This document shows positions 14,354 through 46,029 of a DNA stretch of 64,000 bases, piece after piece. The position numbers and the translations under genes were made by a program. The first letter of the stretch is position 1. Every line of letters starts with the position of its first letter. Source of the DNA: an uncultured Gammaproteobacteria bacterium (GTDB lineage Bacteria > Patescibacteriota > Microgenomatia > Levybacterales > UBA12049); the NCBI GenBank assembly GCA_964520695.1, contig CAZFNO010000001.1:8211-72210 (forward strand), in the 5' to 3' direction. The notes beneath the pieces were generated by a model. That model ran no database searches, had not been told where the DNA came from, and saw only the letters and a program-made list of their open reading frames with translations.

Positions 14354-14366
14354 TTTAGCATTAAGT

Positions 14367-15392
14367 ATGTATTCTAATAAATTTGTAAAATGGATACTGA
14401 TTCCTGGTTTGCTACTGCTTTTATGGATCTCGCTATCTCTGTTTTATAGTTCATATAGAAGTTTTACAGTTTTACAATACGGCCACAAGACAGATGTTTC
14501 TAACAACTTTGGTGAAAGACAATTACTAAAGAATCAGAAGATTCAGGGAAAATTTGTGGCAAAGGAGAATTATTTAGGCATAATCTCTATAAGATTCGGA
14601 GATATTCCGAAGGTAGATTATGATGAAGAAGATTTAATATTGTTTAGAATTAGAGAAAAAGGCCAACAAGATTGGATATATGAAAATAAATATAGGTCTG
14701 GCTCTTTTTTACAAAATCAATATTTCCCATTCGGATTTAAGCAAATAGAAAACTCCAAAGGAAAAGTATATGAATTTGAATTAATTTCCTTAAATGGAGA
14801 AGAATTCAATTCTGTTGAAATAAAAAACACAAATCCTATCTATTTTTCAAAGTATAAATTTCCAAAAAATGAGATTTTTAAAGACAGTAATTCTATTATA
14901 AAATTTATGACTAAAAAATTAATAACTTTTGCAAATAGTTATGATGCATTGCTTTCTTCTTTTGCATTCTTAATTCCTTTTATTTTCTACATGTTGTGGA
15001 TAATATTTTTTGAAATATGGGTCAAAAGTAAAGGAATAATAAACAGAAGAAATTTATTCATAACCTTTGTTTCAGCATTGATAATATCAGAAATTATTTT
15101 CTATGAATTTATAATTGCCGGATTTATGTTAGGCCTTCTTGCCTTATGGGTTTTTACAGTTTATGTCTGTAAACTTAAAAGTACAACAACATTTACATTA
15201 GCTTTTATTCTATTAGCAATTTCCATCATAAGTCTCTATTTTGATTTGGGGGTATCAGCTGACAAGGCTTCAACTTATGCTTATTTTTTGATTATAGTTG
15301 GATTTGCGCAAAGTATAGGGGAGCATAAGAATTACAAACTAAATGATTTGAAAAAGAAATTTCATTTTAAGATTGAGGATAAAACGTCTTGA
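14367..15392 (+). CDS. Membrane protein, partner of the GT-C paralog (TM - ~150 aa soluble domain - 4 TM)
   Basis: N-terminal TM, central hydrophilic domain ('FRIREKGQQDWIYENKYRSG'), C-terminal helices; paralog of 18800..19798; ATG at 14367. Confidence 0.45.
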   Translation: MYSNKFVKWILIPGLLLLLWISLSLFYSSYRSFTVLQYGHKTDVSNNFGERQLLKNQKIQGKFVAKENYLGIISIRFGDIPKVDYDEEDLILFRIREKGQQDWIYENKYRSGSFLQNQYFPFGFKQIENSKGKVYEFELISLNGEEFNSVEIKNTNPIYFSKYKFPKNEIFKDSNSIIKFMTKKLITFANSYDALLSSFAFLIPFIFYMLWIIFFEIWVKSKGIINRRNLFITFVSALIISEIIFYEFIIAGFMLGLLALWVFTVYVCKLKSTTTFTLAFILLAISIISLYFDLGVSADKASTYAYFLIIVGFAQSIGEHKNYKLNDLKKKFHFKIEDKTS

Positions 15393-18803: not shown

Positions 18804-19798
18804 AGATTTATTTTAATAAAAATTATCTAAAAATAGCCTCTTTTATAATTATCCCTACTTTAATTTTATTTTGGGTGGTTACTTCCCTTCTTTTTATAAA
18901 TCGTATAAGTTTTTCTGTAGTAACCTACCAAACGAGAAATTTAGTTGATTCTGATAATTATTCTGAAATCTATAGAGAAAGATCCTATAAGGGGGAATTT
19001 GAAGCAATTGATAATAATTTAGGATTGGTAATTGTTGATTTAGGCAATTACAGAAGACCGGAATCGGCAAATGAGTACGTAATAGTTTTTAGATTTAAGG
19101 AAAAGGGAGATAGTGGGTGGGCAATTCAAAGAGAATATGACTCAGGACTTTTTGATAGTCAAAGTCAATTTTCTTTTGGAATACCTGTGTTGGTGGATTC
19201 TAAAAATAAATATTTTCAATTTGAGATTGCATCAGAAAAAGGAAGCTTGGAAAATCACATTAAAATCAAGAAAAAATCATCATTTATAACAGGATATCAA
19301 TATTCAAAGTCAGAAATTTTAGGAGTAGATTTGAAAGCTTTTAACTTTTTCTATAGTAAATTTTTAGGATTTATTACGGATTTAGAACTATTGACGAAAT
19401 CTTTAATTTATTTAATCCCATTAGCAATATATATATTGGTTTTATTCTTCTTGAATCGCATTTTTCTAAGAGTAAAATACGTTAATATTCCATTTACTGG
19501 TAAATATCTTAAGGTTCTGTTATTGCTAGTGCTTATAAAATTATTGCTGCCACAAGATTTTAAGGTTAGTATGTTTTTTATCTTAGTGGGAGTTTGGACG
19601 GCCATCGTGTATTTTCTAAAACTAAAAAGCAGTGTGTCGTTTTTGTTAAGCTTCACTCTTTTAATTTTATGGATTCTAATTATTCCATTTGATCTTTCAA
19701 ATATTCAAAAGTTGTTGAATGTATCGGTTTACATATTTTTAGCATTCGGAGTCTTTCAGCTGTTATATGAAGAGGTAGGAAGGGTGAGTAAAAAATGA
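18800..19798 (+). CDS. Membrane protein, partner of GT-C paralog B
   Basis: Same architecture as 14367..15392 ('FRFKEKGDSGWAIQREYDSG'); ATGA overlap with the upstream gene. Confidence 0.45.
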   Translation: MKIYFNKNYLKIASFIIIPTLILFWVVTSLLFINRISFSVVTYQTRNLVDSDNYSEIYRERSYKGEFEAIDNNLGLVIVDLGNYRRPESANEYVIVFRFKEKGDSGWAIQREYDSGLFDSQSQFSFGIPVLVDSKNKYFQFEIASEKGSLENHIKIKKKSSFITGYQYSKSEILGVDLKAFNFFYSKFLGFITDLELLTKSLIYLIPLAIYILVLFFLNRIFLRVKYVNIPFTGKYLKVLLLLVLIKLLLPQDFKVSMFFILVGVWTAIVYFLKLKSSVSFLLSFTLLILWILIIPFDLSNIQKLLNVSVYIFLAFGVFQLLYEEVGRVSKK

Positions 19799-20462: not shown

Positions 20463-22322
20463 TCATTTTTTATGAAAGAGTTTCCTTTTTTTAAATATGA
20501 TAATAATCCAACTTCCAAGAGAAACACCGGACATTAATAATCCATAATGGAAAGGCGCTGAAGAGTAAATAAACTCGTATTTATGCTCTCCCGGCAATGA
20601 TTCAACTTCCAAAAATCTTCCCTTTAAAATTTCAATTCTTTCATCATCAACAAACGCCTTCCAGCCTGGATAATTAGTTTCCAATAAAATTAGATGACTC
20701 TTTTTGTTTGAATTTGCAATAACTGTTATTTTATTTGGCGTGAAATTAACTTTCTGCGAGTTTTTGTTTATTCTTGCAAACGGAAGCGCTCTTAAATCTC
20801 TATAAAGAAAAATATCATCTCTGAATTTTCTTAGCATTATAAGATTAGAACTTTTAGTACTAATATTTGAAATCAAAAAACCAGGTTTTATATCGTTATA
20901 TGGATTAAGTCCTTTGAAGTTGTATTTTTCTCCCAAACTTTCTTTAAGAAAAAGTCCATAGTTTGATTGAAGCAGAAGAATTTTGTTCGAATAAGCTTTA
21001 TCTTGAGGAATTTCGCCTTGGGACTGTTTATGAACAGTATAATAATTATCTTCATTATTATCTCGTATCCAATCTAAGACAGCACGGTATTCTTTATTAA
21101 TTTCTTCAAATTTTCTTGTAGAAAGAACATTTTGCGAAAATGTATAAACAATAAGGAGGTTTATCAACAGAAGTCCTATTGCAAATTTTTTATTTTTCCA
21201 TTTATCAATAAATACTCCCAAGGATACTAAAATAATTATTCCCCAATACATTAATATTCTACTTGGAACATGAAAGTATTGTAGGGGTTCAATAATTGAG
21301 ATTAGGTAATGGATTGGATTTAGAGGAGAGTCTGGAGTAGAGAGCAATATAAATAACACTGTAAGTATAATAAGAATTGAGGTTTTTTTGTTGTGTTTGT
21401 CAAAAAATGCTACTTTAAAAATAAAGAATAATCCAAGAATTGACAAAGGGCCGATGAAAGCCAAACTTTCCCACCATCCAAAACTTTCTTTAATTAAAGT
21501 ATCGGGAAACAAAAACTCAAATGGTAAGAATAAATTGAAAATTATGCTATAAATATCGAGTCCCCCTACAAACGGTTCCTTTATCTTTGAAATATGATCT
21601 TGGAGCTGTATCATGGGTAGAATTTTGATTGAGGAAAACGCAAGAAATAAGACAACCGCAAGTGCTAAATGAAAAGAAACTTTTCTATCTTTAAATAAAT
21701 AATATAGAAAAACTGCTCCTGCTAAATATAAAGAAAATAAAGCATTATAAATATCTCCTGAAAAAAAGATTAGAGATAGAGTTATTGCTGTTACTCCAGA
21801 CCATAAAATATTTTTAGTCTGTGCTGTTTTTACTAAGCAAAAAATAAATAATGGAAGAAATGCAAAAGATACCACCTTTTCTAAATGACCCGCAATAATT
21901 CTTGAAGCTAAATAAGCTCCACTTGCATAAGTTATTGAGATTATTACAGAGACCGTATTTGAAATTTTATAAAGCCTTGCAAGTAAAAACATAGAAATGC
22001 AGGCTATAAATACTGAAATAAAATACATTGCTTTTATTGCCAATTGATAAGGAAGAAGTAGTATAGGGATACTGATAATCGGGTTATATATGCCGTAAAG
22101 CGGATCTGCAACGCTTGGAATTCCTTGATTTATAAAAGGATTCCACTGCGGAAAAATACCATACTTGAGTATGGATTCTTTAAAGTGCAGAAGTGGTACA
22201 ATATTTCCATTGAGATCATTGTTAACAATAATATTGGGATCAAGAATAAATTGGATTAAAATAATAACACTTGAAATAAAAAAAAGGATATAAATGCTCG
22301 GCTTCATGAGTGAAACTACCAT
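20463..22322 (-). CDS. YfhO-like GT-C membrane glycosyltransferase
   Basis: ~13 TM helices, C-terminal 'LETNYPGWKAFVDDERIE' resembling the YfhO-family tail. Confidence 0.5.
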   Translation of the reverse strand: MVVSLMKPSIYILFFISSVIILIQFILDPNIIVNNDLNGNIVPLLHFKESILKYGIFPQWNPFINQGIPSVADPLYGIYNPIISIPILLLPYQLAIKAMYFISVFIACISMFLLARLYKISNTVSVIISITYASGAYLASRIIAGHLEKVVSFAFLPLFIFCLVKTAQTKNILWSGVTAITLSLIFFSGDIYNALFSLYLAGAVFLYYLFKDRKVSFHLALAVVLFLAFSSIKILPMIQLQDHISKIKEPFVGGLDIYSIIFNLFLPFEFLFPDTLIKESFGWWESLAFIGPLSILGLFFIFKVAFFDKHNKKTSILIILTVLFILLSTPDSPLNPIHYLISIIEPLQYFHVPSRILMYWGIIILVSLGVFIDKWKNKKFAIGLLLINLLIVYTFSQNVLSTRKFEEINKEYRAVLDWIRDNNEDNYYTVHKQSQGEIPQDKAYSNKILLLQSNYGLFLKESLGEKYNFKGLNPYNDIKPGFLISNISTKSSNLIMLRKFRDDIFLYRDLRALPFARINKNSQKVNFTPNKITVIANSNKKSHLILLETNYPGWKAFVDDERIEILKGRFLEVESLPGEHKYEFIYSSAPFHYGLLMSGVSLGSWIIIIFKKRKLFHKK

Positions 22323-22344: not shown

Positions 22345-24405
22345 ATGAAATTATTTATTCGAAATCTCCCCTTGATAATGTTCTTACTTCTTGTGCTTTG
22401 GGTTTTTAAATCCTGGTTTTTGTCTCCAACTATTTCAGCAGGGGATTTTTGGTATTACTTTAGGTCAATGTTTGATAACTATCACCTTTATCCTTATGCA
22501 TGGTATACAGCTGGTATTTCAAATGGCATGGGATGGCAAGGTTTTGCCTATCAGAATGGCATGATTATATCTGCTGCCGCTGTTGGTTTTGCAAAACTTT
22601 TTAATTTAAGCTGGGAAAATTCATCAAGATTTATTTTTTATATACCATTTATATTTTTATCCTTCACATCATCTGCGTTTTTTATTAAAAAAGTCTTTCC
22701 CAAGAATAAGTTTTGGATTCTTTCTCCAATTATTTTTTCACTAAACACCTATGTTCTTATGACTATAGGAGGAGGCCAATTGCCAACCGCACTTTCCTAC
22801 GCCTTTATGCCGTTTACAATATTCTCTTTTATGAAACTTGCTGAAAAGGTAAGCTCAAAAAAAGCGGAAATTATTCAATATATAATTCTTTGCTCATTAC
22901 TCCTTGCTGTGCAAACGTTACTCGACTTGCGAATTGCATTTATAACTTCTATTGCAGTTTTAATTTATTTAGTATTTGAATTTTGGGATAAAGGTTTGAA
23001 AATCGGATTGAAAACTTTAATTTTCTACTCATTCTCTTTTATAATTCTGGCTCTCATTAATTCCTATTGGATTATTCCGGTTATCTTTTTTGGAATAAAT
23101 CCTATCGAACAGCTTGGAATCGCGTATAGCTCTTCAGGAATTGTTGAGTTCTTAGGTTTTGCAAGGTTTGAGAATTCTATCTCACTTCTTCATCCATACT
23201 GGCCTGAAAATATTTTTGGAAAAGTTGGGTTTATGAGGTGGGAGTTTTTGTTACTTCCAATAATAGCTTTCTCATCACTTTTATTTATCGGAAAAGACAG
23301 AAAAGAAACCAAATATATTTTATTTTTTGCGGTAATTGGGCTTTTAGGCATTTTTCTTGGAAAAGGAGCTAGTGAGCCTTTGGGAAATCTATATATTTGG
23401 GTGTTTGATAATATCCCCGGTTTTCAGCTTTTTCGCGATTCATTCAAATGGTACACGCTGATTATTATTTCTTACAGCATCCTAATTCCTTTTACTGCTT
23501 GGAATGTTTATAAATGGATAGAAAAATATAAACAATTTTCAATTCTTAATTTTAAATTTTCAATCAAATCTAAATATTTTAATTTTCAAAACGTATTTGC
23601 GGTTTTAGTTTTTGTTTACTTATTGTTTTTGATTCGGCCGGCAATACTGGGACAGATTGGGGGGACTTTTCAAGTTAGAGATGTACCCAAGTCATACATT
23701 CAATTAGACAATTTTTTATCTCAGGATGAAAGTTTTTTTAGGACTTTATGGATACCCAATACTATGCTTTTTGGGCACTACACAAATAATCATCCTCAAA
23801 TTTCCGCAAGAGATTATTTTAAGGATTATAATTTAGACTCTCTTTCGGCAACTGTTGCATCAGCCTCATCGCAGGACATACTCGATCTAGCCTCGGTAAA
23901 GTACGTAATTATTCCGGAAGACACTGAGTCTCAAATTTATTTAACGGACAGAAAATATGATGAGAGTAAATATCAATTTATTGTTGGTTCACTAGAGAAA
24001 GCTCAGTGGCTAGAGAAGATTGACCAGTTCGGGAAAGTTGTTGTTTACAAAGCTCCAAACTACAAAGATCATTTCTGGTGTGAATGTGATGCAAAAATAA
24101 GTTATGAATTTATAAATCCAACAAAATATATCGTAAAAATTAATAATGCAGAAAAAGGAGACAGATTGATTTTTTCAGAGAGCTTTGATGAAAAATGGGT
24201 TGCAAAAAAAGAAAATTTTGAGGTAAATTCTGAAGTATACGAAGGCAAATTTAACAGTTTCAGGTTGCCTGAGGGTGATTATGGGCTGGAAATTTATTAT
24301 TCTCCTCAAGATTTGGTTGATTTAGGAGTAAAAATAAGCGTTTTAACCCTGTTTACTACAATCATAATTCTTGCTTCCAGTTTGTTAATGAGGCGTAAAA
24401 AATGA
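22345..24405 (+). CDS. YfhO-like GT-C membrane glycosyltransferase
   Basis: Polytopic; 'GDFWYY' loop after TM1; C-terminal 'DEKWVAKKENFEV..GDYGLEIYY' plus a final TM as in YfhO proteins. Confidence 0.5.
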   Translation: MKLFIRNLPLIMFLLLVLWVFKSWFLSPTISAGDFWYYFRSMFDNYHLYPYAWYTAGISNGMGWQGFAYQNGMIISAAAVGFAKLFNLSWENSSRFIFYIPFIFLSFTSSAFFIKKVFPKNKFWILSPIIFSLNTYVLMTIGGGQLPTALSYAFMPFTIFSFMKLAEKVSSKKAEIIQYIILCSLLLAVQTLLDLRIAFITSIAVLIYLVFEFWDKGLKIGLKTLIFYSFSFIILALINSYWIIPVIFFGINPIEQLGIAYSSSGIVEFLGFARFENSISLLHPYWPENIFGKVGFMRWEFLLLPIIAFSSLLFIGKDRKETKYILFFAVIGLLGIFLGKGASEPLGNLYIWVFDNIPGFQLFRDSFKWYTLIIISYSILIPFTAWNVYKWIEKYKQFSILNFKFSIKSKYFNFQNVFAVLVFVYLLFLIRPAILGQIGGTFQVRDVPKSYIQLDNFLSQDESFFRTLWIPNTMLFGHYTNNHPQISARDYFKDYNLDSLSATVASASSQDILDLASVKYVIIPEDTESQIYLTDRKYDESKYQFIVGSLEKAQWLEKIDQFGKVVVYKAPNYKDHFWCECDAKISYEFINPTKYIVKINNAEKGDRLIFSESFDEKWVAKKENFEVNSEVYEGKFNSFRLPEGDYGLEIYYSPQDLVDLGVKISVLTLFTTIIILASSLLMRRKK

Positions 24406-24483: not shown

Positions 24484-25410
24484 ATGCTGAGTTTTGTTGT
24501 TCCGGTATTTGATGAAGAAGAGAGCCTTGGAGCTTTTTACAAAGAGCTAAAGAAACATGCAGAGGAGCTGGACTCTTCTCATGAAATAATTTTCATTGAT
24601 GATGGTTCCAGAGACAAAACTCTCGATTTGCTTAAAAATTTAGAAAAAAAAGACCCAAAAGTTAGAGTTTACTCTTTTAGAAGAAATCATGGTAAAGCAG
24701 AAGCGCTCACTTTTGGATTTCAAAAAACAAAAGGCGATTTGATAGTGACTTTGGATGCAGATCTTCAGGATAAGCCGTCGGAGATTAAAAAACTAATTGA
24801 AAAGCAAAAAGAGTATTTTGATGTGGTTTCCGGATGGAGAAAAAAACGAAAAGATTCTTTTGCTAAGGTTATTTTCTCTAAATCTTTTAATTTTGTAGCC
24901 CGAATTCTTTGGGGAATAAAGCTTCATGATTATAACTGCGGGCTAAAGATTTATACAAAAGATGTTGCAAAGGAGCTTAATCTTTATGGCGGAATGCATA
25001 GATTTATACCCCTTTTGGCATCAGATGCAGGGTTTAGGGTAACAGAAGTCGCCGTAGAGCACGATGTAAGACGCTATGGTGTGTCAAAGTACAGTGCATG
25101 GAAAGTTTTGACTCAAATGCCTGATATGATGTCTATGTTTTTTCTTTCCAAATTCGGGAAAAGACCACTTCATCTATTTGGTTTTGTAGGATTATTTTTA
25201 TTTCTCGTTGGAGTTCTAATTTCTTTATATCTCTCAATTGACTGGTTTTTGGGAGCGCCTATAGGGGGAAGGCCCTTATTTTTCCTGGGAATACTTTTAA
25301 TACTTGTTGGCGTTCAGATCTCACTAACAGGACTTATCGCAGATCTTATTCTTAATGTTGCTAATAGAAATCAATCGAATTCTATAAGCCTTAGATATTC
25401 ATCGAATTAG
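24484..25410 (+). CDS. Polyprenol-phosphate sugar synthase (GtrB/CsbB/DPM1-like GT2 with C-terminal TM pair)
   Basis: 'SFVVPVFDEEESL', 'IFIDDGSRD', 'LDADLQD'; two C-terminal TM helices. Confidence 0.8.
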   Translation: MLSFVVPVFDEEESLGAFYKELKKHAEELDSSHEIIFIDDGSRDKTLDLLKNLEKKDPKVRVYSFRRNHGKAEALTFGFQKTKGDLIVTLDADLQDKPSEIKKLIEKQKEYFDVVSGWRKKRKDSFAKVIFSKSFNFVARILWGIKLHDYNCGLKIYTKDVAKELNLYGGMHRFIPLLASDAGFRVTEVAVEHDVRRYGVSKYSAWKVLTQMPDMMSMFFLSKFGKRPLHLFGFVGLFLFLVGVLISLYLSIDWFLGAPIGGRPLFFLGILLILVGVQISLTGLIADLILNVANRNQSNSISLRYSSN

Positions 25411-25796: not shown

Positions 25797-26396
25797 TTGA
25801 ATGCTGGAGGTCAAAAATTATACAATTGTAGGGTGAGGATTGGGATTGATATTAGTCAGCTTGCATTTGGGAGTGAAGGTGTGGCAAATTACCTTAGAAA
25901 TCTGGTTGAAAGCCTGGCGCTTGCTGATAAAAAAAACGATTACATCCTGTTTTACTCATCGCTTAGAAGACCTGTGCCTAGTCTTAAAATTAATAATCCA
26001 AAATTTAAAATCAAAGCTTATAAATTTCCTCCTACTTTTCTTGAAAGGCTTTGGAATAAATTCCACATTTTTCCTATTGAGAACTTTGTGGGTAGCGTTG
26101 ACTGGTTTATTACGTCTGACTGGACAGAACCTCCGGTCAAAAAGGCAAAGAAGGCAACAATTATTTACGATCTAATTGTCTATAAATATCCCGAAGAGAC
26201 CCATAATCTAGTGGAAATCAATTATTCTGGACTAAAAATTTCTCCAAATATTGTCGCGTCCCAGCAGGGAAAACTTAAATGGGTAAAAAAAGAGTCCGAT
26301 ATGATTTTTACAATATCCGAAGCTAGCAAGAAAGATATTGTTGATATTCTAGGTATAGATAGCTCAAAAATTAGGGTGATATATCCGGGAGTTTGA
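25797..26396 (+). pseudogene. Truncated GT4 glycosyltransferase (N-terminal Rossmann domain only)
   Basis: 'RIGIDISQLAFGSEG..KKNDYILF' matches N-termini of 26435 and 35825. Stops at 'KIRVIYPGV', exactly where the C-terminal domain begins in the paralogs. No ATG start, only TTG 25797 or GTG 25833. Confidence 0.5.
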
Positions 26397-26434: not shown

Positions 26435-27634
26435 ATGAATATTGGAATTAATGGGTTTGAGGCGGTGGTGCCACGTTTTGGATTTGATAAAAAAACTAAT
26501 CTTCCAATTCGAGTAGGAAGCGCAGAGTATGCATATCAGCTTTTGGCAGCTTTAAATAAAATTGATAAAAAAAATAATTATTTTGTTTATTTACCTGTAG
26601 ATCCAACTCCCGATATGCCTAAAGAGACAGAAAGCTGGGGATATATTGTTTTTTCCTCAAAAAAACTATGGACGCTTGCAGGCCTTTCAAAAAAGCTTGC
26701 AGAGGATAAAAATCGTCTTGATGTTTTTTTCTCTCCAACCCATTATCTTCCTATAACTAACAAAAAATCTGTAATCTCAATTCTGGACGTTTCTTACCTT
26801 AAGTTTCCGAAACTATTCAAAACAAAAGACCTTTATAAGCTCAAGATTTGGGGAAAGTTGTCGATTAAGAAAGCAAAAAAGATATTAACAATAAGCGAGG
26901 CTTCCAAGAGTGATATAATTAAATATTACGGATTAAAATCGGATAAGATAGAAGTTGTATATCCGGGAATTAAAAAAGCGTCAAGCGTTAAGGGGAAAGG
27001 GTTAAGTATGGAAGAATTAAAAAAGAAATTTGGAATAAAAGGAGACTATATACTTTTCGTCGGGACGCTTCAGCCGAGAAAAAATATTGTTCGTCTGATC
27101 GAGGCGTTTAGCATGGTCGTTCAGAAGTATTCTCCGAGCGATCCGCCAGCTGGCGGAGAATCGGGAAATCAGTTCTCGACAAGCTCGAACAATAATGAAT
27201 TACAGCTGGTTATAGTAGGGAAAAAAGGGTGGCAATATGAGCAGATTTTAGACGCTCCTTCAAAATTTAATGTTTCAGACCGCGTTTTGTTTCTTGAAAG
27301 TGTTTCGGACGGGGATCTGCCTGTGCTTTACAAACATGCAAAAATGTTTATCTTACCAAGTCTTTATGAAGGATTCGGTCTCCCGGTACTTGAGGCAATG
27401 CAATACGGATGTCCTGTTATAACAAGCAATGTTTCATCACTTCCTGAGGCAGGCGGAGATGCGGCTTTGTATGTAGATCCTGAAAATGTGAATGACATAA
27501 AAGAAAAAATGGGAAGACTTTTAAATGATGAAAAATTGAGAAAAGACTTGATTGAGAAAGGAAAACATCAAATTAAGAAGTTTTCTTGGGAAAAGTCAGC
27601 AAGACAAACTTTGAGAAATCTTGAAGAAATTTAG
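26435..27634 (+). CDS. Family-4 glycosyltransferase carrying an ~25-aa low-complexity insertion
   Basis: '[18 protein letters not shown]' EX7E motif; insertion '[25 protein letters not shown]' encoded by a GC-rich patch. Confidence 0.8.
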
Positions 27635-27661: not shown

Positions 27662-28216
27662 ATGATAAAAAAAATAATAAGACGAATAAACACAATTATA
27701 ATTGAACTTGAAAACTGGATAATGCACGTGTCAGGATATGTTCCATCACACCACTTCAGACGGTTAATTTATAGACTGGGTGGCATGAAGATTGGAAGAG
27801 GTTCAACTATTCATACAGGATTAAGACTTTACAATGCAAAGAATATAAAAATCGGTCAGGACACAATTGTTGGTGAAGGAGCGGTTTTGGACGGGAGGGA
27901 TAGTTTGGTAATCGGTGATCATGTGGATATTGCAACGGATGTTATGATTTATAACTCAGAACATGATGTTTATGATTCGAGTTTCAAAGCAATATCAGCA
28001 CCAGTTGAGATTTCTGATTATGTTTTTATTGGGCCTAGGGCGATAATTCTTCCCGGAGTCAAGATAGGACGCGGCGCTGTTATCGGGGCAGGCGCAGTTG
28101 TAACAAAAGATGTTGAGGCATTCAAAATTGTCGGAGGAGTTCCTGCTAAAGAAATAGGGGAGCGACAAAACAAAAATCCCAACTATAAATTAGGACGTGC
28201 CGCTTGGTTTAGGTAA
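27662..28216 (+). CDS. Hexapeptide-repeat (LbH) acetyltransferase
   Basis: 'IGPRAIILPGVKIGRGAVIGAGAVVTKDV' hexapeptide repeats. Confidence 0.75.
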   Translation: MIKKIIRRINTIIIELENWIMHVSGYVPSHHFRRLIYRLGGMKIGRGSTIHTGLRLYNAKNIKIGQDTIVGEGAVLDGRDSLVIGDHVDIATDVMIYNSEHDVYDSSFKAISAPVEISDYVFIGPRAIILPGVKIGRGAVIGAGAVVTKDVEAFKIVGGVPAKEIGERQNKNPNYKLGRAAWFR

Positions 28217-28221
28217 ATTTT

Positions 28222-29088
28222 ATGCCAAAGGTTACAATTATTATTCTCACCTATAATTCAGCAGGTTTTATAAAAAAATTATTAGAAAGTATAAAAAGAC
28301 AGCATAAAGACCTTTCTGGTTTGGAGATAATTATCGTCGACAACGATTCTAACGACAAAACAATTGAAGAAGTCTTAAATGCAAAACTTCAAACTTCAGA
28401 CTTTAAATTAATAAGGAATAAAGAAAATGTTGGGTTTGCGAAGGGGATAAATATTGGAGCGGAAAAAGCAACAGGTGATTTTTTACTTTTTATAAATCCT
28501 GACACAGAATTTGAGAAAGGAGATATATGGAAAATGACTGAAGTTTTTGCAATTCATAAGGAGGTGGGAATAGTCGGCGGAAAACTTTTAAAGAATAACG
28601 GAAAAGTAGAGAAATCAGCCGGGAATTTTTTTGGTTTTTTTGAGACCATTATTATGGCATTTGGATTGGACGAGGTATTTGGTGTTCGAACAAGTCCTGA
28701 GAAACTAACAAAAGTAGGTTTTGTCAGCGGCGGTTTTCTGATGATTAAAAAAGACTTATTCGAAAAGCTTGGGGGTTTTGATGAAAACTTTTTTATGTAT
28801 ATTGAGGACATGGATCTTTGCAAAAGAGCAAAAGAGGAAGGTTTTAGCACTTACTTTACGCCTGATGTAGTTTTGGTACACGCATCACATGGTTCATCGA
28901 ATAGATCGTTTGCTATTGAAAATATTTATAAAAGCATAATTTATTATCACGAAAAACATTCAAACTCTATTGTTTATTTTTTGGTAAAAATGATTCTTAA
29001 GCTTAAAGCGTTTGTTCTTGTAATAATTGGCAGAATTATCAATAATAAATATCTAGTCAATTCGTATAGTAAGGCACTTAGTGTATGA
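28222..29088 (+). CDS. Family-2 glycosyltransferase
   Basis: 'KVTIIILTYNSAGFIKKLLESIKRQ', 'IIVDNDSND', 'NPDTE', 'EDMDLC'. Confidence 0.8.
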   Translation: MPKVTIIILTYNSAGFIKKLLESIKRQHKDLSGLEIIIVDNDSNDKTIEEVLNAKLQTSDFKLIRNKENVGFAKGINIGAEKATGDFLLFINPDTEFEKGDIWKMTEVFAIHKEVGIVGGKLLKNNGKVEKSAGNFFGFFETIIMAFGLDEVFGVRTSPEKLTKVGFVSGGFLMIKKDLFEKLGGFDENFFMYIEDMDLCKRAKEEGFSTYFTPDVVLVHASHGSSNRSFAIENIYKSIIYYHEKHSNSIVYFLVKMILKLKAFVLVIIGRIINNKYLVNSYSKALSV

Positions 29089-32000
29089 AAAAAATTTTCT
29101 CATGGGTTTGGGACAATATATTATTTCTTGAGTCACTTTTTCTTTTGGCTTTCATACCCCTTTATCCAAAAATCCCGGTTTTAGATATTCAGAACACCTG
29201 GGTTTATGTGAGAATAGAGGATTTTATTGTTTCTTTTATTCTTCTTTCATGGCTTACTCTTTTGGTAAAAAAGAAAATTACTCTAAAAACTCCTCTAACT
29301 TTTCCGGTTCTCATTTTTTGGATTGTTGGATCAGTTGCTACTCTTCATGGAGTACTTATTGTCTTTCCAAACTTACCCAATGTTTTTCCAAATGTAGCAT
29401 TTTTAAGTCTTCTTCGTCATATTGAATATGTAAGCCTCTTTTTTATCGGCTACCACGGACTGCGCAATAAGAAACTCCTTCCATACGTGGTGGGGGCGCT
29501 TACAGTAATTCTTCTTGCTGTAATAGCATACGGATTTGGACAAAAATATTTAGGCTTTCCGGCATTCCTGACTGGAAATGAAGAATTTGCAAAAGGAATT
29601 CCCATAAGACTTTCCGAGTTATCAAGAGTCCCTTCAACATTTGCAGGTCATTATGATTTGGCTGCTTATCTTGTTTTGATAGTTCCCATAATGCTAAGCC
29701 TTTTTTTTGGTCTAAAAAACATTTTGTTTAGATTATTTTTTCTTGGTGTAACTCTTCTTGGAACTGCCCTTATGTTTATGACAGTATCGCGCGTTTCTTT
29801 TGTTGCCCTATTTGTCTCGTTTTTTGCAGTTTTATTTTTTATGAGACGAAAAATATTTTTTGTGGCGCTTCCTCTCGCTTTTATTTTTGGAACAATTCTT
29901 CTTTCCTATCAGCCCTCGCTTCTTGATAGATTTAAAAGCACAGTTTCTGAAGTGGATGTAATAGTTGATTCGAGAACAGGGGAATCAGTGGGTCATGTCA
30001 AATTTGTTGAGAAGGAGTATCTTTCGGATAAGCTTATTCTTCAAAGGAGAGTAAAGGACAGCGTTGAACTTGCAAATGTCATGGCCACAATTGATCAGGA
30101 TGAGCAGTATTCGCTTAATTCCCCTGTATTTCCTTTTAGACTGGTTCCTGAGGAAGTGCCTTTGGTTACGGCTGTTAATATCTCAACAGGGGAGAGTTTG
30201 CCTTCGGGAACAGGATATATTAACCTGTCACTCTCTCCAGTCACGAAAAGACTTAACAATTTCTTTTATGAACTTCCCAAAGAAGAAGGATCAACCCTGT
30301 CAGCGCAAGTCATTGTGTTTCATGGACCGTTTATTGTTAAGCGGGCAGCAGCGTATGATCTATCTTTTACCACCAGATTTCAGGGAGAATGGCCCAATGC
30401 TATAAATGCTTTCAAAAAAAATATCTTTCTTGGAAGCGGATACGGGGGAGTTGGCCTTGCAATAGATAATAATTATTTGCGAATTTTAGGTGAAACAGGA
30501 ATCCTGGGGTTTAGTGCATTTTTCTCGCTATTCTTAATTCTTGCAATATATATTAGAAAAATTTATCCAAGTGTTGATTCGTCTCTTGCCAAAAGCTTCA
30601 TTATTGGGTTTACCGCGGGTCTTTTTGGTCTTTTTCTTAATGCGACTTTGATTGATATATTTGAAGCATCCAAAATCGCATTTGTTTTGTGGCTTCTTGT
30701 GGGAATTGTCTTTGCGCTTCTGATCCAGTATCAGAAAAAGACAATAGATATTCTTTCAGAACTGAGAAGTTCAATCTCGTCTCCATTTGTAATAATCGCA
30801 ATTTTGGCAGTCTTAACAGGTGTTATATTTTCTCCGGCTATAAATAACTTTTTTGTAGGAGACGATTTCACCTGGTTTCGCTGGGCGGCTGAATGTGGTG
30901 CAAATTGTCAGCCGGCAAGAGAGATTCTTAATTATTTTACAAGTTCAGACGGCTTTTTCTACAGGCCCGGAGCAAAAACCTATTTCCTCCTTATGTATAA
31001 AACTTTCTGGCTTAATCAAAGCGTTTATCACATGGTTTCTATCCTTCTCCATTTTGTTGTGGCAAGTCTTATGTTCTTACTTTCCTGGAAGATTTTTAAA
31101 AATGTTTTCTTAGCGGCTGCTGCTTCTTTTGTTTTCCTAATCTTAAGCGGTGCAACAGAGGCTGTGTTTTGGATATCAACAACAGGATATTTATTTAATA
31201 CTGTCTTTGGTCTTTTGGGAATATTGCTGTTTATACTTTGGGATGATAGAAGAAAGCTCTATTTTCTTGGGGGGTCAATATTTTCAATATCTTTGTCTTT
31301 TCTTTTCCACGAGCTTGGGATTGTTTATCCTTTTCTTGTGCTTGTTTACGCCCTATTATACGGAAAAGATACAAATACTGGGAATTTTTTCAGAAGATGG
31401 GATCTTGCAATCGTTTTTTCTACAATTCCTATTTATCTTGTAATCAGATTTTTGTCCGGGAGCCATTGGTTCTCAGGAGACTATTCCTATAATCTATTAA
31501 AGCTTCCGCTTAATGTTATTGGAAACAGTTTGGGATATTTGGTTTTGACTCTTTTGGGACCTATTACTCTTCCCGTTTACACACTACTCCGAGAAACACT
31601 TAGAGAAAATTTGATAGTTGCAGTAACAATTATTCCTGTTGCCGCGTTTGTTTTGTTTATTGTTTACAAATACAGTATTAAAATATTTGATCTTAGAGAG
31701 AAAAAAATAGTTTTATTTGGAATTTTATTTTTTGCAGTTTCTCTTATTCCTTTTCTTGGTCTTGGGAACATTTCATCAAGATATAGTTATTTGGCATCGT
31801 TTGGAATTGTTATTATTTTAATAGTTTTTGCCAAAAAGTTTTTTGCGTATCTTGCGCAGATGGATAGAAAAATTGCTTCACTGGTTATAAGTCTTTTTGT
31901 AATAATTTTTGTGCTTTTTCATGTCATATCGCTCCAGCAGTCCTATTTTAATTGGAATGAGGCGGGAACCAAAACTAAAAAATTCTTTTTATCAATAGAT

Positions 32001-32291
32001 GCTCAATATTCAAACCTTTGGGTTTCACCCAATACTCAATTTCATTTTGTCAATGTTCCCATAAAAGTCGGAGAAGCTTGGGTATTTCCAGTAGGACTCA
32101 CTGACGCCCTTTGGTTTGCGATACAAAATGAAAATGCCAAAATCTTTGTCCACTCAGATGTCGGTGAAGCAATAAGTGCCTCAGAAGGACGGCTGGACCT
32201 GGATAGACCTGTTTTAATATTCCAGCCTGACGGAAGCCTTATTACCCCCTACGCCGCAACAGTTTCTTCTGATTTGATAAACCAGCCCTGA
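29085..32291 (+). CDS. 1068-aa fusion membrane protein: O-antigen ligase/polymerase-like (Wzy_C) domain + GT-C-like domain
   Basis: N half: ~12 TM plus large external loop ending 'GSGYGGVGLAIDNNYLRILGETGILG' (ligase-like signature, His position is Asp). C half: second polytopic domain starting 'FFVGDDFTWFRW'. Confidence 0.5.
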   Translation: MKKIFSWVWDNILFLESLFLLAFIPLYPKIPVLDIQNTWVYVRIEDFIVSFILLSWLTLLVKKKITLKTPLTFPVLIFWIVGSVATLHGVLIVFPNLPNVFPNVAFLSLLRHIEYVSLFFIGYHGLRNKKLLPYVVGALTVILLAVIAYGFGQKYLGFPAFLTGNEEFAKGIPIRLSELSRVPSTFAGHYDLAAYLVLIVPIMLSLFFGLKNILFRLFFLGVTLLGTALMFMTVSRVSFVALFVSFFAVLFFMRRKIFFVALPLAFIFGTILLSYQPSLLDRFKSTVSEVDVIVDSRTGESVGHVKFVEKEYLSDKLILQRRVKDSVELANVMATIDQDEQYSLNSPVFPFRLVPEEVPLVTAVNISTGESLPSGTGYINLSLSPVTKRLNNFFYELPKEEGSTLSAQVIVFHGPFIVKRAAAYDLSFTTRFQGEWPNAINAFKKNIFLGSGYGGVGLAIDNNYLRILGETGILGFSAFFSLFLILAIYIRKIYPSVDSSLAKSFIIGFTAGLFGLFLNATLIDIFEASKIAFVLWLLVGIVFALLIQYQKKTIDILSELRSSISSPFVIIAILAVLTGVIFSPAINNFFVGDDFTWFRWAAECGANCQPAREILNYFTSSDGFFYRPGAKTYFLLMYKTFWLNQSVYHMVSILLHFVVASLMFLLSWKIFKNVFLAAAASFVFLILSGATEAVFWISTTGYLFNTVFGLLGILLFILWDDRRKLYFLGGSIFSISLSFLFHELGIVYPFLVLVYALLYGKDTNTGNFFRRWDLAIVFSTIPIYLVIRFLSGSHWFSGDYSYNLLKLPLNVIGNSLGYLVLTLLGPITLPVYTLLRETLRENLIVAVTIIPVAAFVLFIVYKYSIKIFDLREKKIVLFGILFFAVSLIPFLGLGNISSRYSYLASFGIVIILIVFAKKFFAYLAQMDRKIASLVISLFVIIFVLFHVISLQQSYFNWNEAGTKTKKFFLSIDAQYSNLWVSPNTQFHFVNVPIKVGEAWVFPVGLTDALWFAIQNENAKIFVHSDVGEAISASEGRLDLDRPVLIFQPDGSLITPYAATVSSDLINQP

Positions 32292-32309: not shown

Positions 32310-33782
32310 GTGAAAAAAACTACTCTCCTCCTTCTTTTGGGAATTCTTGTTCTCGGATTTGCGCTTCGTTTGTATAAGTTTGATGCTCCCGTTGCCGACT
32401 GGCATTCATGGCGTCAAGCAGACACTTCGGCTGTTTCAAGAAACTTTGTGGAGCAAGGTTTTGATCTTTTGCATCCAAAATTTGATGATCTTTCAAACGT
32501 CGCATCAGGACAGAATAATCCCAAGGGTTATCGATTTGTAGAATTTCCTATATATAACGGCCTTCAGGCTGGTTTGTTTAAGACCTTAGGAGTATTTACT
32601 CTTGAAGGATGGGGAAGGATGATATCTATTTTTTCATCTCTTTTTGTTTCGGTTTTTGTTTTTCTCATTCTCAAAAAGCATCACTCAGAAACAGCGGGTT
32701 TAATAGGAGCATTTTTTGCGGCAGGCCTTCCTTTTAGTGTTTATTTCGGAAGAACAATTCTTCCCGACATGTCCATGGCAGCAGCAATGCTCGGAGGAAT
32801 TTATTTCTTCGATCTGTGGACTTCGGAAAACTTAAAACTTAAAACTAAAAGCGCAAAACTACAGCTAAAAAATAAAAGTTTAATATATTTTGTTTTGAGT
32901 TTAATACTTACAACAGTGGCACTACTTTTAAAACCATTTGCCTTATTTTTTACACTTCCCATGGTTTATCTAGCGTTTAAAACGTTTGGGAAAAAGGCAT
33001 TTGTAAACCCTTATCTTTGGGTATTTGCAGTTATGTCTATCCTGCCATTGGGTTTATGGAGGATTTGGATGATGCAGTTTCCGGAAGGAATTCCCGCTAA
33101 CTCTTGGTTATTTAATGAAGGAAACATTAGATTTAAAGGTGCTTATTTTTATTGGATATTTGGAGAAAGATTGGGAAAACTAATTCTGGGCTACTGGGGA
33201 ATATCACTTCTGGTTTTGGGTATTATTTCAAAAATAAAAAAAGACGGGTGGTTTTTATATTCATTTATTTTTTCATCGCTTTTATATCTGGTGATTATAG
33301 CGCGTGGTAATGTTCAGCATGACTATTACCAAGTACTAATTATTCCAACGCTCGCTATCTTTTTAGGACTAGGCGGGGAATTCCTCCTTAATTTTGTAAA
33401 AACCTACACAAATAAATATGTGGGACCCGCAGTGTTTATTGTTATAACTTTTTTTACGCTGAGTCTTAGCTGGTATTATGTTCGTGATCTCTACAATATA
33501 AATAATCCCTCAATAATAACCGCAGGCGAAGCGGCGGACAGACTCCTGCCTAAAGATGCAAAAGTTATAGCAATACAGGGTGGTGATACATCTTTTCTTT
33601 ACCAGACCAAAAGACGCGGCTGGGCCAGTTTCGCCTACGATATAGAAGAGTTGGTAGGCCTTGGCGCGGATTATCTTATCTTCGCAAACCCAACCCCGTC
33701 CGATCTTACTTTTTCAAAAAAGTATGAGGTATTTGATCAAGCACCTGAATATATAATATATGATCTCAACAAACCGTTATGA
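32310..33782 (+). CDS. GT-C fold membrane glycosyltransferase (ArnT/PMT/GT39-like)
   Basis: GTG start; 'WHSWRQADTSAVSRNF' first loop, ~11 TM helices, soluble C-terminal tail. Confidence 0.55.
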   Translation: MKKTTLLLLLGILVLGFALRLYKFDAPVADWHSWRQADTSAVSRNFVEQGFDLLHPKFDDLSNVASGQNNPKGYRFVEFPIYNGLQAGLFKTLGVFTLEGWGRMISIFSSLFVSVFVFLILKKHHSETAGLIGAFFAAGLPFSVYFGRTILPDMSMAAAMLGGIYFFDLWTSENLKLKTKSAKLQLKNKSLIYFVLSLILTTVALLLKPFALFFTLPMVYLAFKTFGKKAFVNPYLWVFAVMSILPLGLWRIWMMQFPEGIPANSWLFNEGNIRFKGAYFYWIFGERLGKLILGYWGISLLVLGIISKIKKDGWFLYSFIFSSLLYLVIIARGNVQHDYYQVLIIPTLAIFLGLGGEFLLNFVKTYTNKYVGPAVFIVITFFTLSLSWYYVRDLYNINNPSIITAGEAADRLLPKDAKVIAIQGGDTSFLYQTKRRGWASFAYDIEELVGLGADYLIFANPTPSDLTFSKKYEVFDQAPEYIIYDLNKPL

Positions 33783-39151: not shown

Positions 39152-39817
39152 ATGCCGTATAAAGAAGTTAAAAAGGAAATATATTACGAGATCATGAAAA
39201 GAGTGTTTGATATTATCTGCTCCTCTATTCTTTTGATACTTTTCATGCCGGTAATAATTTTGGTTTCGATTGCAATAAAGTTTGACTCTAAAGGACCGAT
39301 TTTGGCGGATACTCCAGAGCGTGTTGGGAAAAACGGTAAGCTTTTTAAGATGTATAAATTCCGCTCAATGATTGAAAATGCCCATGAGCTCCTCCGGGAA
39401 AATCCAAAGTTTGCCAAACTTTATCAGGACTATAAAAAGGGAAGCTATAAGTTAAGGGATGATCCAAGAATAACTAAAGTGGGACGTTTTATAAGGAAGC
39501 ACTCTTTGGATGAAGTACCTCAGTTTTTTAACGTACTAAAGGGAGAGATGAGCCTTGTAGGACCTAGGGCTTACTACCCTGATGAACTTAGAGAACAGCA
39601 GAAAAGATACCCTAGGACTAAAGACGATGTAGAGATTGTATTATCGGTAAAACCGGGTGTTACGGGATACTGGCAGGTTTCCGGAAGATCAGAAATAAAT
39701 TTTGATAAGAGGATAAAAATGGATGCAGAATATGTGAGAAAAAGATCACTAATTTATGATTTGATTATTGTTCTAAAAAGTCCCTGGGCAATGATCTCCG
39801 GAAAAGGCGCTTTGTAA
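39152..39817 (+). CDS. Polyprenyl-phosphate sugar phosphotransferase (bacterial sugar transferase, WbaP/PglC-like)
   Basis: N-terminal TM 'ICSSILLILFMPVIILVSIAI', 'KFRSM', 'DEVPQFFNVLKGEMSLVGPR'. Confidence 0.85.
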   Translation: MPYKEVKKEIYYEIMKRVFDIICSSILLILFMPVIILVSIAIKFDSKGPILADTPERVGKNGKLFKMYKFRSMIENAHELLRENPKFAKLYQDYKKGSYKLRDDPRITKVGRFIRKHSLDEVPQFFNVLKGEMSLVGPRAYYPDELREQQKRYPRTKDDVEIVLSVKPGVTGYWQVSGRSEINFDKRIKMDAEYVRKRSLIYDLIIVLKSPWAMISGKGAL

Positions 39818-44689: not shown

Positions 44690-45121
44690 ATGTTAATAGG
44701 CAGGCACGATAGTAAACTTGATGAAAAAAATAGGATTTCATTTCCCTTTAAGTTTAAAAAAGAACTTGGAGTAAATCTAATCATCACGCAAGGATTTGAA
44801 GGCTCTTTGATAGTAATTTCCAGGAAGCAGATGGGGTTTTTGACCAAGGGGTTAGAGGGTAAGCCTATAACCAACAAAGAAGCTCGTGATGTCGAAGCAT
44901 TCCTGCTTGGTTCAGCCGAAGAAGTAACCCTTGATAATAAGGGAAGATTTATTTTGCCTGACCATTTAAAAAGATATGCCGGTATAACGACAGAAGTTGC
45001 GTGTCTTGGAATTATGAATTACGTTCGGATTTGGGACAAAAAACGCTGGGAGGAGTACAACAGGGAGCACTTGATAAAAAACATTTCAGAAATTACCCAA
45101 AAACTGTCCGATGAAAAATGA
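44690..45121 (+). CDS. mraZ: Transcriptional regulator MraZ
   Basis: 'GRHDSKLDEKNRISFP' and duplicated domain 'LDNKGRFILP'. Confidence 0.85.
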   Translation: MLIGRHDSKLDEKNRISFPFKFKKELGVNLIITQGFEGSLIVISRKQMGFLTKGLEGKPITNKEARDVEAFLLGSAEEVTLDNKGRFILPDHLKRYAGITTEVACLGIMNYVRIWDKKRWEEYNREHLIKNISEITQKLSDEK

Positions 45122-46020: not shown

Positions 46021-46029
46021 GATTAGAAT

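What the first reader, a model, noticed from the sequence alone, without database searches (positions are those of the whole stretch)
29085..32291. 1068-aa fusion of an O-antigen-ligase/polymerase-like domain with a second GT-C-like membrane domain; ligase signature His replaced by Asp
The N half has the Wzy_C-type loop motif 'GSGYGGVGLAIDNNYLRILGETGILG', with Asp where ligases usually have the conserved His. The C half is a separate polytopic domain starting with a 'GDD' acidic loop, like the other GT-C proteins in the locus. One polypeptide combining a ligase/polymerase with an oligosaccharyltransferase-like domain is an unusual architecture. It could couple polymerisation and transfer of a surface glycan.
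Basis: partly seen in the sequence, partly recalled or inferred. Interest (0 to 1): 0.6.

Follow-up and report, generated by a model that had tools for sequence, protein, structure and literature searches.

The report
Fused WaaL-like and GT-C glycosyltransferase
This is a real, widely conserved 1068-residue membrane protein of Levybacteria-type (CPR) bacteria that joins two different kinds of lipid-linked-sugar transferase in one chain; relatives encode the same two parts as neighbouring genes, so the two enzymes almost certainly act together on one cell-surface glycan.

Summary
The ORF (29085-32291, +, 1068 aa) is real and is not an assembly artefact. 549 species-representative genomes encode a relative, and in the best 80 both halves are contiguous and in frame.

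**Split relatives.** A sister lineage encodes the two halves as adjacent separate genes in the same gene order.

**Most likely function.** Two coupled outer-face steps in one glycan pathway. The donors, acceptors and exact roles are inferred, not shown. The architecture appears undescribed. I rate it a new variant of known kinds, of moderate interest.

The parts
29085..32291 (+). Whole ORF, 1068 aa. The start ATG overlaps the stop of the upstream GT2 gene (ATGA).
   Evidence: Full-length homologues.
29085..30731 (+). N module, aa 1-549. WaaL/Wzy_C-type (GT-C_B) fold with 12 predicted TM helices and a long outer loop between TM9 and TM10.
29790..29792 (+). Arg236 in the invariant 'TVSRVS'. It lies at the start of the Wzy_C match and is a candidate equivalent of the first diphosphate-binding Arg of WaaL.
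   Evidence: Invariant in 120/120 homologues. The Wzy_C match begins at aa ~223. The equivalence to WaaL Arg is inferred, not superposed.
29943..30338 (+). Beta-rich insert of 132 aa (aa 287-418) inside the catalytic outer loop. It contains the conserved 'STGE.LP.GTGYINL.LSP'. Its function is unknown.
   Evidence: Strands in the AF2 model, moderate to low pLDDT. 56% mean pairwise identity. Removing it raises Wzy_C from 17.5 to 45.6 bits.
30339..30524 (+). Wzy_C catalytic loop segment, aa 419-480. Contains invariant Y424, D425, R431, Q433, W436, the GSGY stretch, and the motif D461-N462-X9-G472-XX-G475 (nt 30465-30509).
   Evidence: Motif definition.
30732..30782 (+). Linker, aa 550-566. Lys-rich and predicted cytoplasmic, with a short amphipathic helix joining TM12 of the N module to TM1 of the C module.
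   Evidence: 45% mean identity, the least conserved segment. The stand-alone C-domain protein P0186 starts exactly here.
30783..32009 (+). C module membrane part, aa 567-975. GT-C_A fold with about 13 TM helices.
30858..30866 (+). G592-D593-D594, at the start of the first outer loop of the C module, within '[GAS]DDF.W..W'. Candidate catalytic acid pair.
   Evidence: D593 and D594 invariant in 120/120. Kept in stand-alone and split relatives.
32010..32288 (+). Small C-terminal alpha/beta domain, aa 976-1068, predicted to lie outside the membrane. Contains the invariant 'AWVFPVG' (nt 32076-32096).
   Evidence: Largely absent from the split-lineage C proteins, whose matches end at aa ~1008-1016.
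28222..29088 (+). GT2 glycosyltransferase immediately upstream, translationally coupled to the fusion gene.
   Evidence: Pfam. Immediately upstream in 57/72 testable genomes.
27662..28216 (+). Hexapeptide-repeat acetyltransferase, a conserved upstream partner.
   Evidence: Pfam. Within 1.3 kb upstream in 71/72 testable genomes.
32310..33782 (+). Second, separate GT-C (weak PMT_2 match), a conserved partner immediately downstream.
   Evidence: Pfam, E 4e-4. The orthologues carry PMT_2 on record. Immediately downstream in 71/74 testable genomes.
24484..25410 (+). ArnC/GtrB/PgfS-like GT2 with two C-terminal TM helices. Probable polyprenyl-phosphate-sugar synthase, which would supply the donor for GT-C_A enzymes.
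   Evidence: NCBIfam: ArnC E 3e-50 over the full length, PgfS E 2e-42, both below their equivalog cut-offs. Sequence.
39152..39817 (+). Bac_transf phosphoglycosyl transferase. It would prime a polyprenyl-PP-linked glycan, the donor type used by WaaL/Wzy-type enzymes.
   Evidence: Pfam E 4e-62. NCBIfam WbaP/EPS_sugtrans. Present in the same position in L002 and L003.

Best explanation
The gene encodes a genuine two-module integral membrane glycosyltransferase of about 25 TM helices. It arose by fusion of two neighbouring genes and is conserved across Microgenomates (Levybacteria, Roizmanbacteria, Gottesmanbacteria).

**Module 1 (aa 1-549).** A WaaL/Wzy-type GT-C_B enzyme. By analogy it takes a flipped polyprenyl-diphosphate-linked glycan as donor. 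That glycan would be primed by the locus PGT at 39152-39817 and extended by the many GT4/GT2 enzymes nearby. Invariant arginines (R236, R431) would hold the diphosphate and invariant Asp461 would activate the acceptor hydroxyl. The Asp puts it chemically with the inverting polymerases and SEDS enzymes rather than with lipid-A-core ligases.

**Module 2 (aa 567-1068).** A GT-C_A enzyme with an invariant D593-D594 pair in its first outer loop. It most likely uses a polyprenyl-monophosphate sugar, made by the ArnC-like GT2 at 24484-25410, to add a single sugar.

[quoted passage not shown] The two modules would carry out consecutive extracytoplasmic steps on the same surface glycan. Either the C module branches the chain that the N module polymerises, or the C module installs the acceptor sugar onto which the N module transfers the glycan.

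**Shown:** the folds, the invariant residues, conservation of the fusion, the split-gene relatives and the conserved synteny.
**Inferred:** the donors, the acceptors, the order of the steps and the catalytic roles of individual residues.
For: - **Real and conserved.** The 120 best homologues are all full length. 549 species genomes encode a relative, and 80/80 examined are contiguous and in frame. Both halves are under constraint, with 67-73% pairwise identity in the N half and 53% in the C half.
- **Topology.** Twelve helices in the N module put the linker in the cytoplasm, so both catalytic loops face outward.
- **Coupling.** In a sister lineage the N (522-540 aa) and C (447-480 aa) halves are separate adjacent genes in the same gene order in 4 of 4 look-ups, and they overlap by ATGA in L086.
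- **Pathway context.** The PGT, the ArnC-like GT2, many GT4/GT2 genes, a ManC-like nucleotidyl transferase and a second GT-C are conserved around the gene.
- **Precedent.** Outer-face GT-C enzymes fed by an ArnC-like synthase are described in PMC11127046.
Against: - No biochemical data exist for any member of the family.
- No Wzx-type, ABC-type or GtrA-type flippase was recognised among the window ORFs scanned, so the pathway is incomplete as read here.
- The residue equivalences to WaaL R191/R265/H313 rest on motif and HMM register, not on a structural superposition.
- Several other GT-C-like proteins in the locus could be the users of the polyprenyl-P-sugar.
- The fold search does not distinguish a monosaccharide-transferring GT-C_A from an OST. 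STT3B is nominally the top hit.
- Inter-module packing in the AF2 model could not be inspected because no PAE was available. The only indication is pTM 0.79.
Confidence: 0.6

Rival explanations
1. Polymerase plus OST-like transferase. The N module polymerises repeat units on the lipid carrier. The C module then transfers the finished polyprenyl-PP-linked polymer en bloc to its final acceptor, a protein or lipid, acting like an oligosaccharyltransferase.
Confidence: 0.15
2. Ligase with a built-in primer (the WadA logic). The C module puts a single sugar from a polyprenyl-P-sugar onto the final acceptor, such as a surface protein Ser/Thr, a lipid or the wall. The N module then acts as a ligase, transferring the polyprenyl-PP-linked glycan onto that sugar. 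This is a sub-case of the best explanation with the roles specified.
Against: The ligase His is replaced by Asp in every member. No curated ligase model is reached: TIGR03097 scores 28.4 bits against a cut-off of 188. No acceptor protein was identified.
Confidence: 0.2
3. One module is non-catalytic. For example, the C module could be a scaffold, a substrate-binding partner or a lipid-carrier handler, as PIG-U/GAB1 are GT-C-like but non-transferase subunits. The fusion would then be a single enzyme with an accessory domain.
Against: The DD pair and many charged residues are invariant across 120 homologues: R627, K631, H649, E692, E743, R788, D799 and R899. The DD pair is also kept in distant stand-alone relatives. 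Catalytic GT-C enzymes score higher than PIG-U.
Confidence: 0.08
4. Artefact: a missed stop, a frameshift or a chimeric join between two genes in this assembly.
For: In a related lineage the two halves are indeed separate genes.
Against: The frame is open across the junction. There are 120 full-length homologues from independent sources. In 80/80 independent species genomes the halves are contiguous and in frame. The linker is alignable across the family.
Confidence: 0.01

Closest known systems
WaaL O-antigen ligase (PDB 7TPG/7TPJ; CAZy GT121; GT-C_B)
   Different: Asp replaces the catalytic His in every member. A 132-residue beta-rich insert splits the catalytic loop. The protein is fused to a second transferase. 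The host is a CPR bacterium, and no lipid A/LPS genes were seen in the window. No curated ligase model is reached.
Inverting Wzy-type polymerases and SEDS (RodA/FtsW); CAZy clan GT-C1 (GT119, GT125-129)
   Different: No Wzx or chain-length regulator was recognised nearby. Structurally the module is nearer to WaaL than to SEDS. Membership of a specific CAZy polymerase family could not be tested here.
GT-C_A glycosyltransferases: STT3/PglB/AglB (GT66), PMT (GT39), ArnT (GT83), ALG12, AftA
   Different: 8-12% identity. No Pfam or NCBIfam model matches the window's C half. There is no WWD motif, and the C-terminal domain is very small. The nearest subfamily is undecided.
WadA, a bimodular O-antigen ligase (GT25 + GT121)
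   Same: A WaaL-type module fused to a second glycosyltransferase of the same pathway. PMC10920833 suggests coupled action of the two modules.
   Different: [quoted passage not shown] Here the partner is a second polytopic, lipid-donor GT-C whose catalytic loop is predicted on the outer face.
Three-component periplasmic glycosylation systems (GtrA/GtrB/GtrC type; PMC11127046, PMC8035078)
   Same: An ArnC/GtrB-like polyprenyl-P-sugar synthase plus GT-C enzyme(s) encoded alongside a Wzy-type glycan pathway.
   Different: No GtrA-like flippase was found. The GT-C is covalently fused to the WaaL/Wzy-type enzyme instead of acting as a free modifier.

Membership tests
Pfam Wzy_C (PF04932) / GT-C_B fold | HMM score at or above the gathering threshold (31.7 bits) | tested here: met
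   The intact protein scores 17.5 bits, which fails. With the aa 287-418 insert removed in silico it scores 45.6 bits, E 8.2e-12, in one stretch over HMM positions 3-149 of 149. 23/59 relatives hit directly, with a best E of 1.9e-8.
Pfam Wzy_C (PF04932) / GT-C_B fold | 12-TM architecture with a long outer loop before the last three helices; structural similarity to WaaL/SEDS | tested here: met
Pfam Wzy_C (PF04932) / GT-C_B fold | Conserved outer-face arginines that bind the lipid diphosphate | tested here: inconclusive
   R236, R282, R431 and R466 are invariant in 120/120. Their equivalence to WaaL R191/R265 was not verified by superposition.
O-antigen ligase proper (WaaL, CAZy GT121) | Catalytic His at the head of H[NSQ]X9GXX[GTY] | tested here: not met
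   Asp461 occupies this position. The D form occurs in 120/120 homologues and the H form in 0/120. Motif as quoted.
O-antigen ligase proper (WaaL, CAZy GT121) | Match to a curated ligase model | tested here: not met
   NCBIfam gives nothing for the intact protein. The trimmed N core scores only 28.4 bits on TIGR03097, whose cut-off is 188.1.
O-antigen ligase proper (WaaL, CAZy GT121) | Lipid A-core acceptor / LPS pathway in the host | not tested
   Only a 64-kb window was available, and no LPS genes were seen in it.
Inverting Wzy-type polymerases (CAZy clan GT-C1) | Asp/Glu at the ligase-His position plus conserved Arg on the outer face | tested here: met
   D461 and the arginines are invariant. 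Criterion taken from PMC10920833.
Inverting Wzy-type polymerases (CAZy clan GT-C1) | Accompanying Wzx flippase and chain-length regulator in the locus | tested here: not met
   No Polysacc_synt/MATE-like or Wzz hit among the ORFs scanned between 211 and 49330. Several membrane ORFs remain unannotated.
Inverting Wzy-type polymerases (CAZy clan GT-C1) | Sequence membership of a CAZy polymerase family (GT125-129) | not testable with these tools
   No CAZy family models were available.
GT-C_A fold glycosyltransferases | Fold similarity to solved GT-C_A enzymes | tested here: met
GT-C_A fold glycosyltransferases | Acidic catalytic residue(s) in the first outer loop after TM1 | tested here: met
   D593 and D594 are invariant in 120/120. 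They are kept in stand-alone and split relatives. Their position just after TM1 (aa 567-587) is seen.
GT-C_A fold glycosyltransferases | Match to a curated sequence family (PMT_2, PMT, ArnT etc.) | tested here: not met
   No Pfam or NCBIfam hit for the window's C half. 2/59 relatives hit PMT_2 weakly. 10 stand-alone relatives have no Pfam hit.
Oligosaccharyltransferase (STT3/PglB/AglB, GT66) | WWDYG-type motif in a large C-terminal outer domain | tested here: not met
   No WWD in this protein; it is present in only 2/120 homologues. The C-terminal domain is about 93 aa. That WWDYG defines OSTs is taken from established knowledge of GT66.
Three-component outer-face glycosylation system | Polyprenyl-P-sugar synthase (ArnC/GtrB-like GT2) in the locus | tested here: met
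   ORF 24484-25410 matches ArnC at E 3e-50 over the full length and has two C-terminal TM helices. The score is below the equivalog cut-off, so the sugar is unknown.
Three-component outer-face glycosylation system | GtrA-type small flippase | tested here: not met
   None was recognised among the ORFs scanned, and there are no unassigned gaps large enough within 24-40 kb.

The most novel reading that the evidence does not exclude
The fusion is a self-contained 'polymerise-and-attach' machine. A Wzy-type polymerase would be physically wired to a GT-C_A module that anchors the product to its final acceptor, or primes that acceptor. In Microgenomates this would replace the separate WaaL, LCP or O-OTase ligases of other bacteria. 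It would also define a new GT-C_A family, with no Pfam or NCBIfam model at present, that has its own donor/acceptor chemistry.
Probability: 0.15. Interest if true: 0.75.

Novelty: new variant of a known kind. Interest (0 to 1): 0.5.

Why it matters
WaaL/Wzy-type (GT-C_B) and OST/PMT/ArnT-type (GT-C_A) enzymes are the two structural classes of lipid-donor membrane glycosyltransferases. [quoted passage not shown]

A natural, strongly conserved covalent fusion with split-gene relatives is direct comparative evidence that such a pair works as a unit. It offers one polypeptide in which to study the coupling structurally and biochemically.

It also marks the core of a conserved module: acetyltransferase, GT2, the fusion, and a second GT-C. 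This module sits in the main surface-glycan locus of a large CPR group whose envelope chemistry is essentially unknown.

Finally, it flags a large GT-C_A sequence family that current domain libraries do not model. With the C-half profile, 1,178 cluster representatives match at E<=1e-30.

Tried and rejected
- **Sequence searches against PDB.** I searched with the full-length profile, the C-half-rich profile and the trimmed N-core profile. None returned a meaningful hit; all had E>=0.8 to unrelated proteins. Only fold comparison identified the modules.
- **Pfam and NCBIfam on the intact protein.** These gave only a sub-threshold Wzy_C hit, which looked like 'no HMM support'. The 132-aa insert explains this.
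- **BLASTP of each half against the other large membrane ORFs of the window.** No relationship was found, so the C half is not a recent paralogue of the neighbouring GT-Cs.
- **The locus of the stand-alone C-domain protein P0186 (L001).** It has no N-half homologue next to it. The Zixibacteria (L084) and L085 contexts are unrelated loci. The split-gene evidence therefore comes only from the 447-480-aa subgroup.
- **Literature searches.** Five searches for such a fusion, or for CPR O-antigen-ligase-like proteins, found nothing relevant.
- **A simple hydropathy TM count.** It was too crude, so AF2 secondary structure was used instead.
- **Record titles.** I rejected 'uncultured Gammaproteobacteria' as taxonomy for many matching MAGs. 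The same genes, gene order and small contigs are otherwise labelled Levybacteria or Patescibacteria.
Full report
**1. The observation**

The window has an ATG-to-stop ORF of 1068 codons at 29085-32291 on the + strand. Its start overlaps the stop codon of the upstream GT2 gene (ATGA). With the window's composition, stop codons make up about 7.7% of random triplets. An open frame of this length therefore has a chance probability of about 1e-37.

The quoted peptide is at aa 450-475 and 'GDD' is at aa 592-594. Comparison removes it:
- The 120 best database homologues are all 1045-1080 aa, 52-60% identical, with 96-100% coverage.
- A scan of one genome per species found 549 genomes that encode a relative.
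- In all 80 loci retrieved, the two halves are contiguous and in the same frame.

The closest genome is a Candidatus Levybacteria MAG at 71% identity. Other named hosts are Roizmanbacteria, Gottesmanbacteria and 'Patescibacteria'. The window is 35% G+C, tightly packed and almost entirely on one strand. It is therefore a Microgenomates (CPR) genome.

**2. The N half**

Pfam gives only a sub-threshold Wzy_C hit on the intact protein: 17.5 bits against a cut-off of 31.7, at aa 422-480. NCBIfam gives nothing.

The AlphaFold model has pLDDT 79.5 and pTM 0.79. It shows 12 helices, with a long loop between the ninth and tenth. That loop contains a beta-rich segment at aa 287-418. Removing this segment in silico raises the Wzy_C match to 45.6 bits (E 8.2e-12) in a single stretch covering HMM positions 3-149 of 149. 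The insert, not divergence, is what hides the domain. 23 of 59 relatives hit Wzy_C directly.

**3. His to Asp**

The WaaL motif H[NSQ]X9GXX[GTY] (as quoted) is matched in register by D461-N462-X9-G472-XX-G475. Asp is present in 120 of 120 homologues and His in none.

Its meaning is different from what was implied. PMC10920833 reports that the O-ligase His aligns with an essential Asp in SEDS and with a conserved Asp or Glu in nearly all inverting Wzy-type polymerase families. It proposes that all of these activate the acceptor. The Asp argues against filing the protein as an O-antigen ligase proper. It is compatible with an active enzyme of the polymerase/SEDS chemical type.

Invariant arginines R236, R282, R431 and R466 are candidates for the diphosphate-binding pair. 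R236 sits at the start of the Wzy_C match and R431 sits 30 residues before D461. I could not verify these equivalences by superposition.

**4. The C half**

The C half was modelled alone with a more diverse alignment and gives pLDDT 92.6 and pTM 0.92. The model has about 13 helices followed by a small alpha/beta domain.

The acidic pair D593-D594 lies just after the first helix and is invariant. So are R627, K631, H649, E692, E743, R788, D799 and R899. The motif '[GAS]DDF.W..W' survives in distant stand-alone relatives.

The label 'OST-like' is too narrow. Monosaccharide-transferring families score as well as OSTs. There is no WWD motif, and the outer C-terminal domain is only about 93 residues.

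No Pfam or NCBIfam model matches the window's C half or ten stand-alone relatives. Only 2 of 59 relatives touch PMT_2 weakly. A C-half-only profile nevertheless finds 1,178 cluster representatives at E<=1e-30 and about 45,000 at E<=1e-10. The looser count probably includes other GT-C families.

**5. Topology**

Twelve helices in the N module place the Lys-rich linker (aa 550-566) in the cytoplasm. The first helix of the C module then leads outward. The WaaL-type loop and the DD loop are thus both predicted on the outer face (inference). This orientation is the one expected for both enzyme classes, so the fusion is topologically coherent.

**6. Origin and coupling**

All 35 long (at least 700 aa) representatives that matched the N half carry an N half homologous to this one; one further long hit, P0326, did not match. 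This points to a single origin for the fusion.

Stand-alone C-domain proteins also exist. P0186 (493 aa, inside a 72-kb contig) begins exactly at the domain boundary.

The most telling evidence comes from a subgroup of 447-480-aa relatives. In four of four look-ups, the C-domain gene lies directly downstream of an unannotated 522-540-aa gene. The gene order is the same as here: GT4, GT4, acetyltransferase, GT2, N gene, C gene, PMT_2, GT4, GT2.

In the three loci with DNA available:
- The upstream proteins are 36-37% identical to aa 4-548 of the fusion (E 1e-85 to 1e-90).
- The downstream proteins are 28-30% identical to aa 568-1016.
- Both keep the Asp motif and the DD motif.
- In L086 the two genes overlap by ATGA.

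This is a classical fusion of neighbouring, co-translated genes. It is the strongest evidence that the two enzymes work together.

**7. Context**

The gene sits in a roughly 40-kb glycan locus containing:
- many GT4 and GT2 genes
- sugar-nucleotide enzymes
- methyl- and acetyltransferases
- a ManC-like nucleotidyl transferase
- a Bac_transf phosphoglycosyl transferase (39152-39817)
- a DUF4012 protein
- several further GT-C-like membrane proteins

.

The core neighbourhood is conserved across the genomes that could be tested. A PMT_2-like GT-C is immediately downstream in 71/74. The hexapeptide acetyltransferase is upstream in 71/72. The GT2 is immediately upstream in 57/72.

ORF 24484-25410 resembles ArnC, PgfS and GtrB over its full length and has two C-terminal helices. 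It is the kind of enzyme that makes polyprenyl-P-sugar donors for outer-face GT-C enzymes (PMC11127046).

No Wzx-, ABC- or GtrA-type flippase was recognised in the window.

**8. Mechanism proposed**

*Shown:* two intact, conserved, differently folded lipid-donor transferase modules, derived from adjacent genes and embedded in a PGT-initiated glycan locus.

*Inferred:*
- The N module uses the flipped polyprenyl-PP-glycan as donor. Arg residues would hold the diphosphate and Asp461 would act as base.
- The C module uses a polyprenyl-P-sugar, with D593/D594 as the catalytic acids.
- The two act consecutively on the same surface glycan.

Two role assignments remain open. In one, the N module is a polymerase and the C module adds a branch. 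In the other, the C module primes an acceptor and the N module ligates the glycan onto it, which is the WadA logic.

It is not excluded, but it is less likely for the reasons given in section 4. A non-catalytic C module is unlikely given its invariant charged residues. The artefact explanation is refuted.

**9. Comparison and novelty**

Each module is a new, divergent member of a known structural class. The N module passes the Wzy_C and GT-C_B tests but fails the defining His of O-antigen ligases. The C module passes the GT-C_A fold and acidic-loop tests but belongs to no curated sequence family and fails the OST hallmark.

Five literature searches found no description of a GT-C_B::GT-C_A fusion. 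The nearest precedent is WadA, a GT25 + GT121 fusion. Public records call these proteins 'hypothetical' or 'O-antigen ligase family protein'.

I rate it a new variant of known kinds. The architecture and its conservation are solid. The function is inferred. Interest is moderate (0.5).

Noticed in passing
window 12128-14353 and 16386-18803; 14286-15392 and 18800-19798: This looks like a tandemly duplicated two-gene module. Two large polytopic proteins (741 and 805 aa, 37% identical) have no Pfam hit and carry 'LF[LI]GGDDTRL' after TM1, a GT-C-like acidic loop. Each is followed by a paralogous smaller membrane protein (368 and 332 aa, 29% identical).
   Followed up: partly
window 29943-30338 (aa 287-418 of the fusion): A 132-aa beta-rich insert sits inside the catalytic loop of the Wzy_C module. 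It is conserved at 56% pairwise identity and carries an invariant 'TGE.LP.GTGYINL.LSP' stretch that AF2 models poorly. Its function is unknown, and it is why domain scans miss Wzy_C.
   Followed up: partly
window 25797-26396: A 199-aa ORF (TTG start) carries only a fragment of a Glyco_transf_4 domain and lies just before a complete GT4 gene (26435-27634). The same short ORF plus GT4 pair is present in L002 (174 aa) and L003 (177 aa), so it may be a conserved small gene rather than a pseudogene remnant.
   Followed up: no
window 211-49330 (all ORFs of at least 120 aa scanned): No Wzx/MATE-like, ABC-type or GtrA-like flippase was recognised in or near this large PGT-initiated glycan locus. Several membrane ORFs remain unannotated, for example 20463-22322 (-) and 22345-24405.
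   Followed up: partly
window 22345-24405; L001 2908-4809: A 686-aa polytopic protein with weak DUF6541 and MmpA-like hits has a 32%-identical homologue two genes upstream of the stand-alone C-domain gene in L001. This suggests a recurring association with this GT-C family.
   Followed up: no
L005-L082 (genome contigs records): Many MAG records that carry this Levybacteria-type gene, with the same gene order and sub-megabase contigs, are titled 'uncultured Gammaproteobacteria bacterium' (TPA_asm). This is almost certainly a placeholder or mislabel.
   Followed up: no
L084 8001-9449; L085 8001-9476: Stand-alone relatives of the C module occur outside glycan-polymer loci. One is in a Zixibacteria MAG among Kdo/Lpt (LPS core) genes. 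Another lies next to SprB/Por_Secre_tail-type surface proteins and type IV pilus genes. This hints that the family has diverse acceptors.
   Followed up: partly
window 45118-49330 and beyond: The glycan locus is followed, after RecO and a class II tRNA synthetase, by a cell-division/wall cluster: MraW, a PBP transpeptidase and Mur ligases.
   Followed up: no
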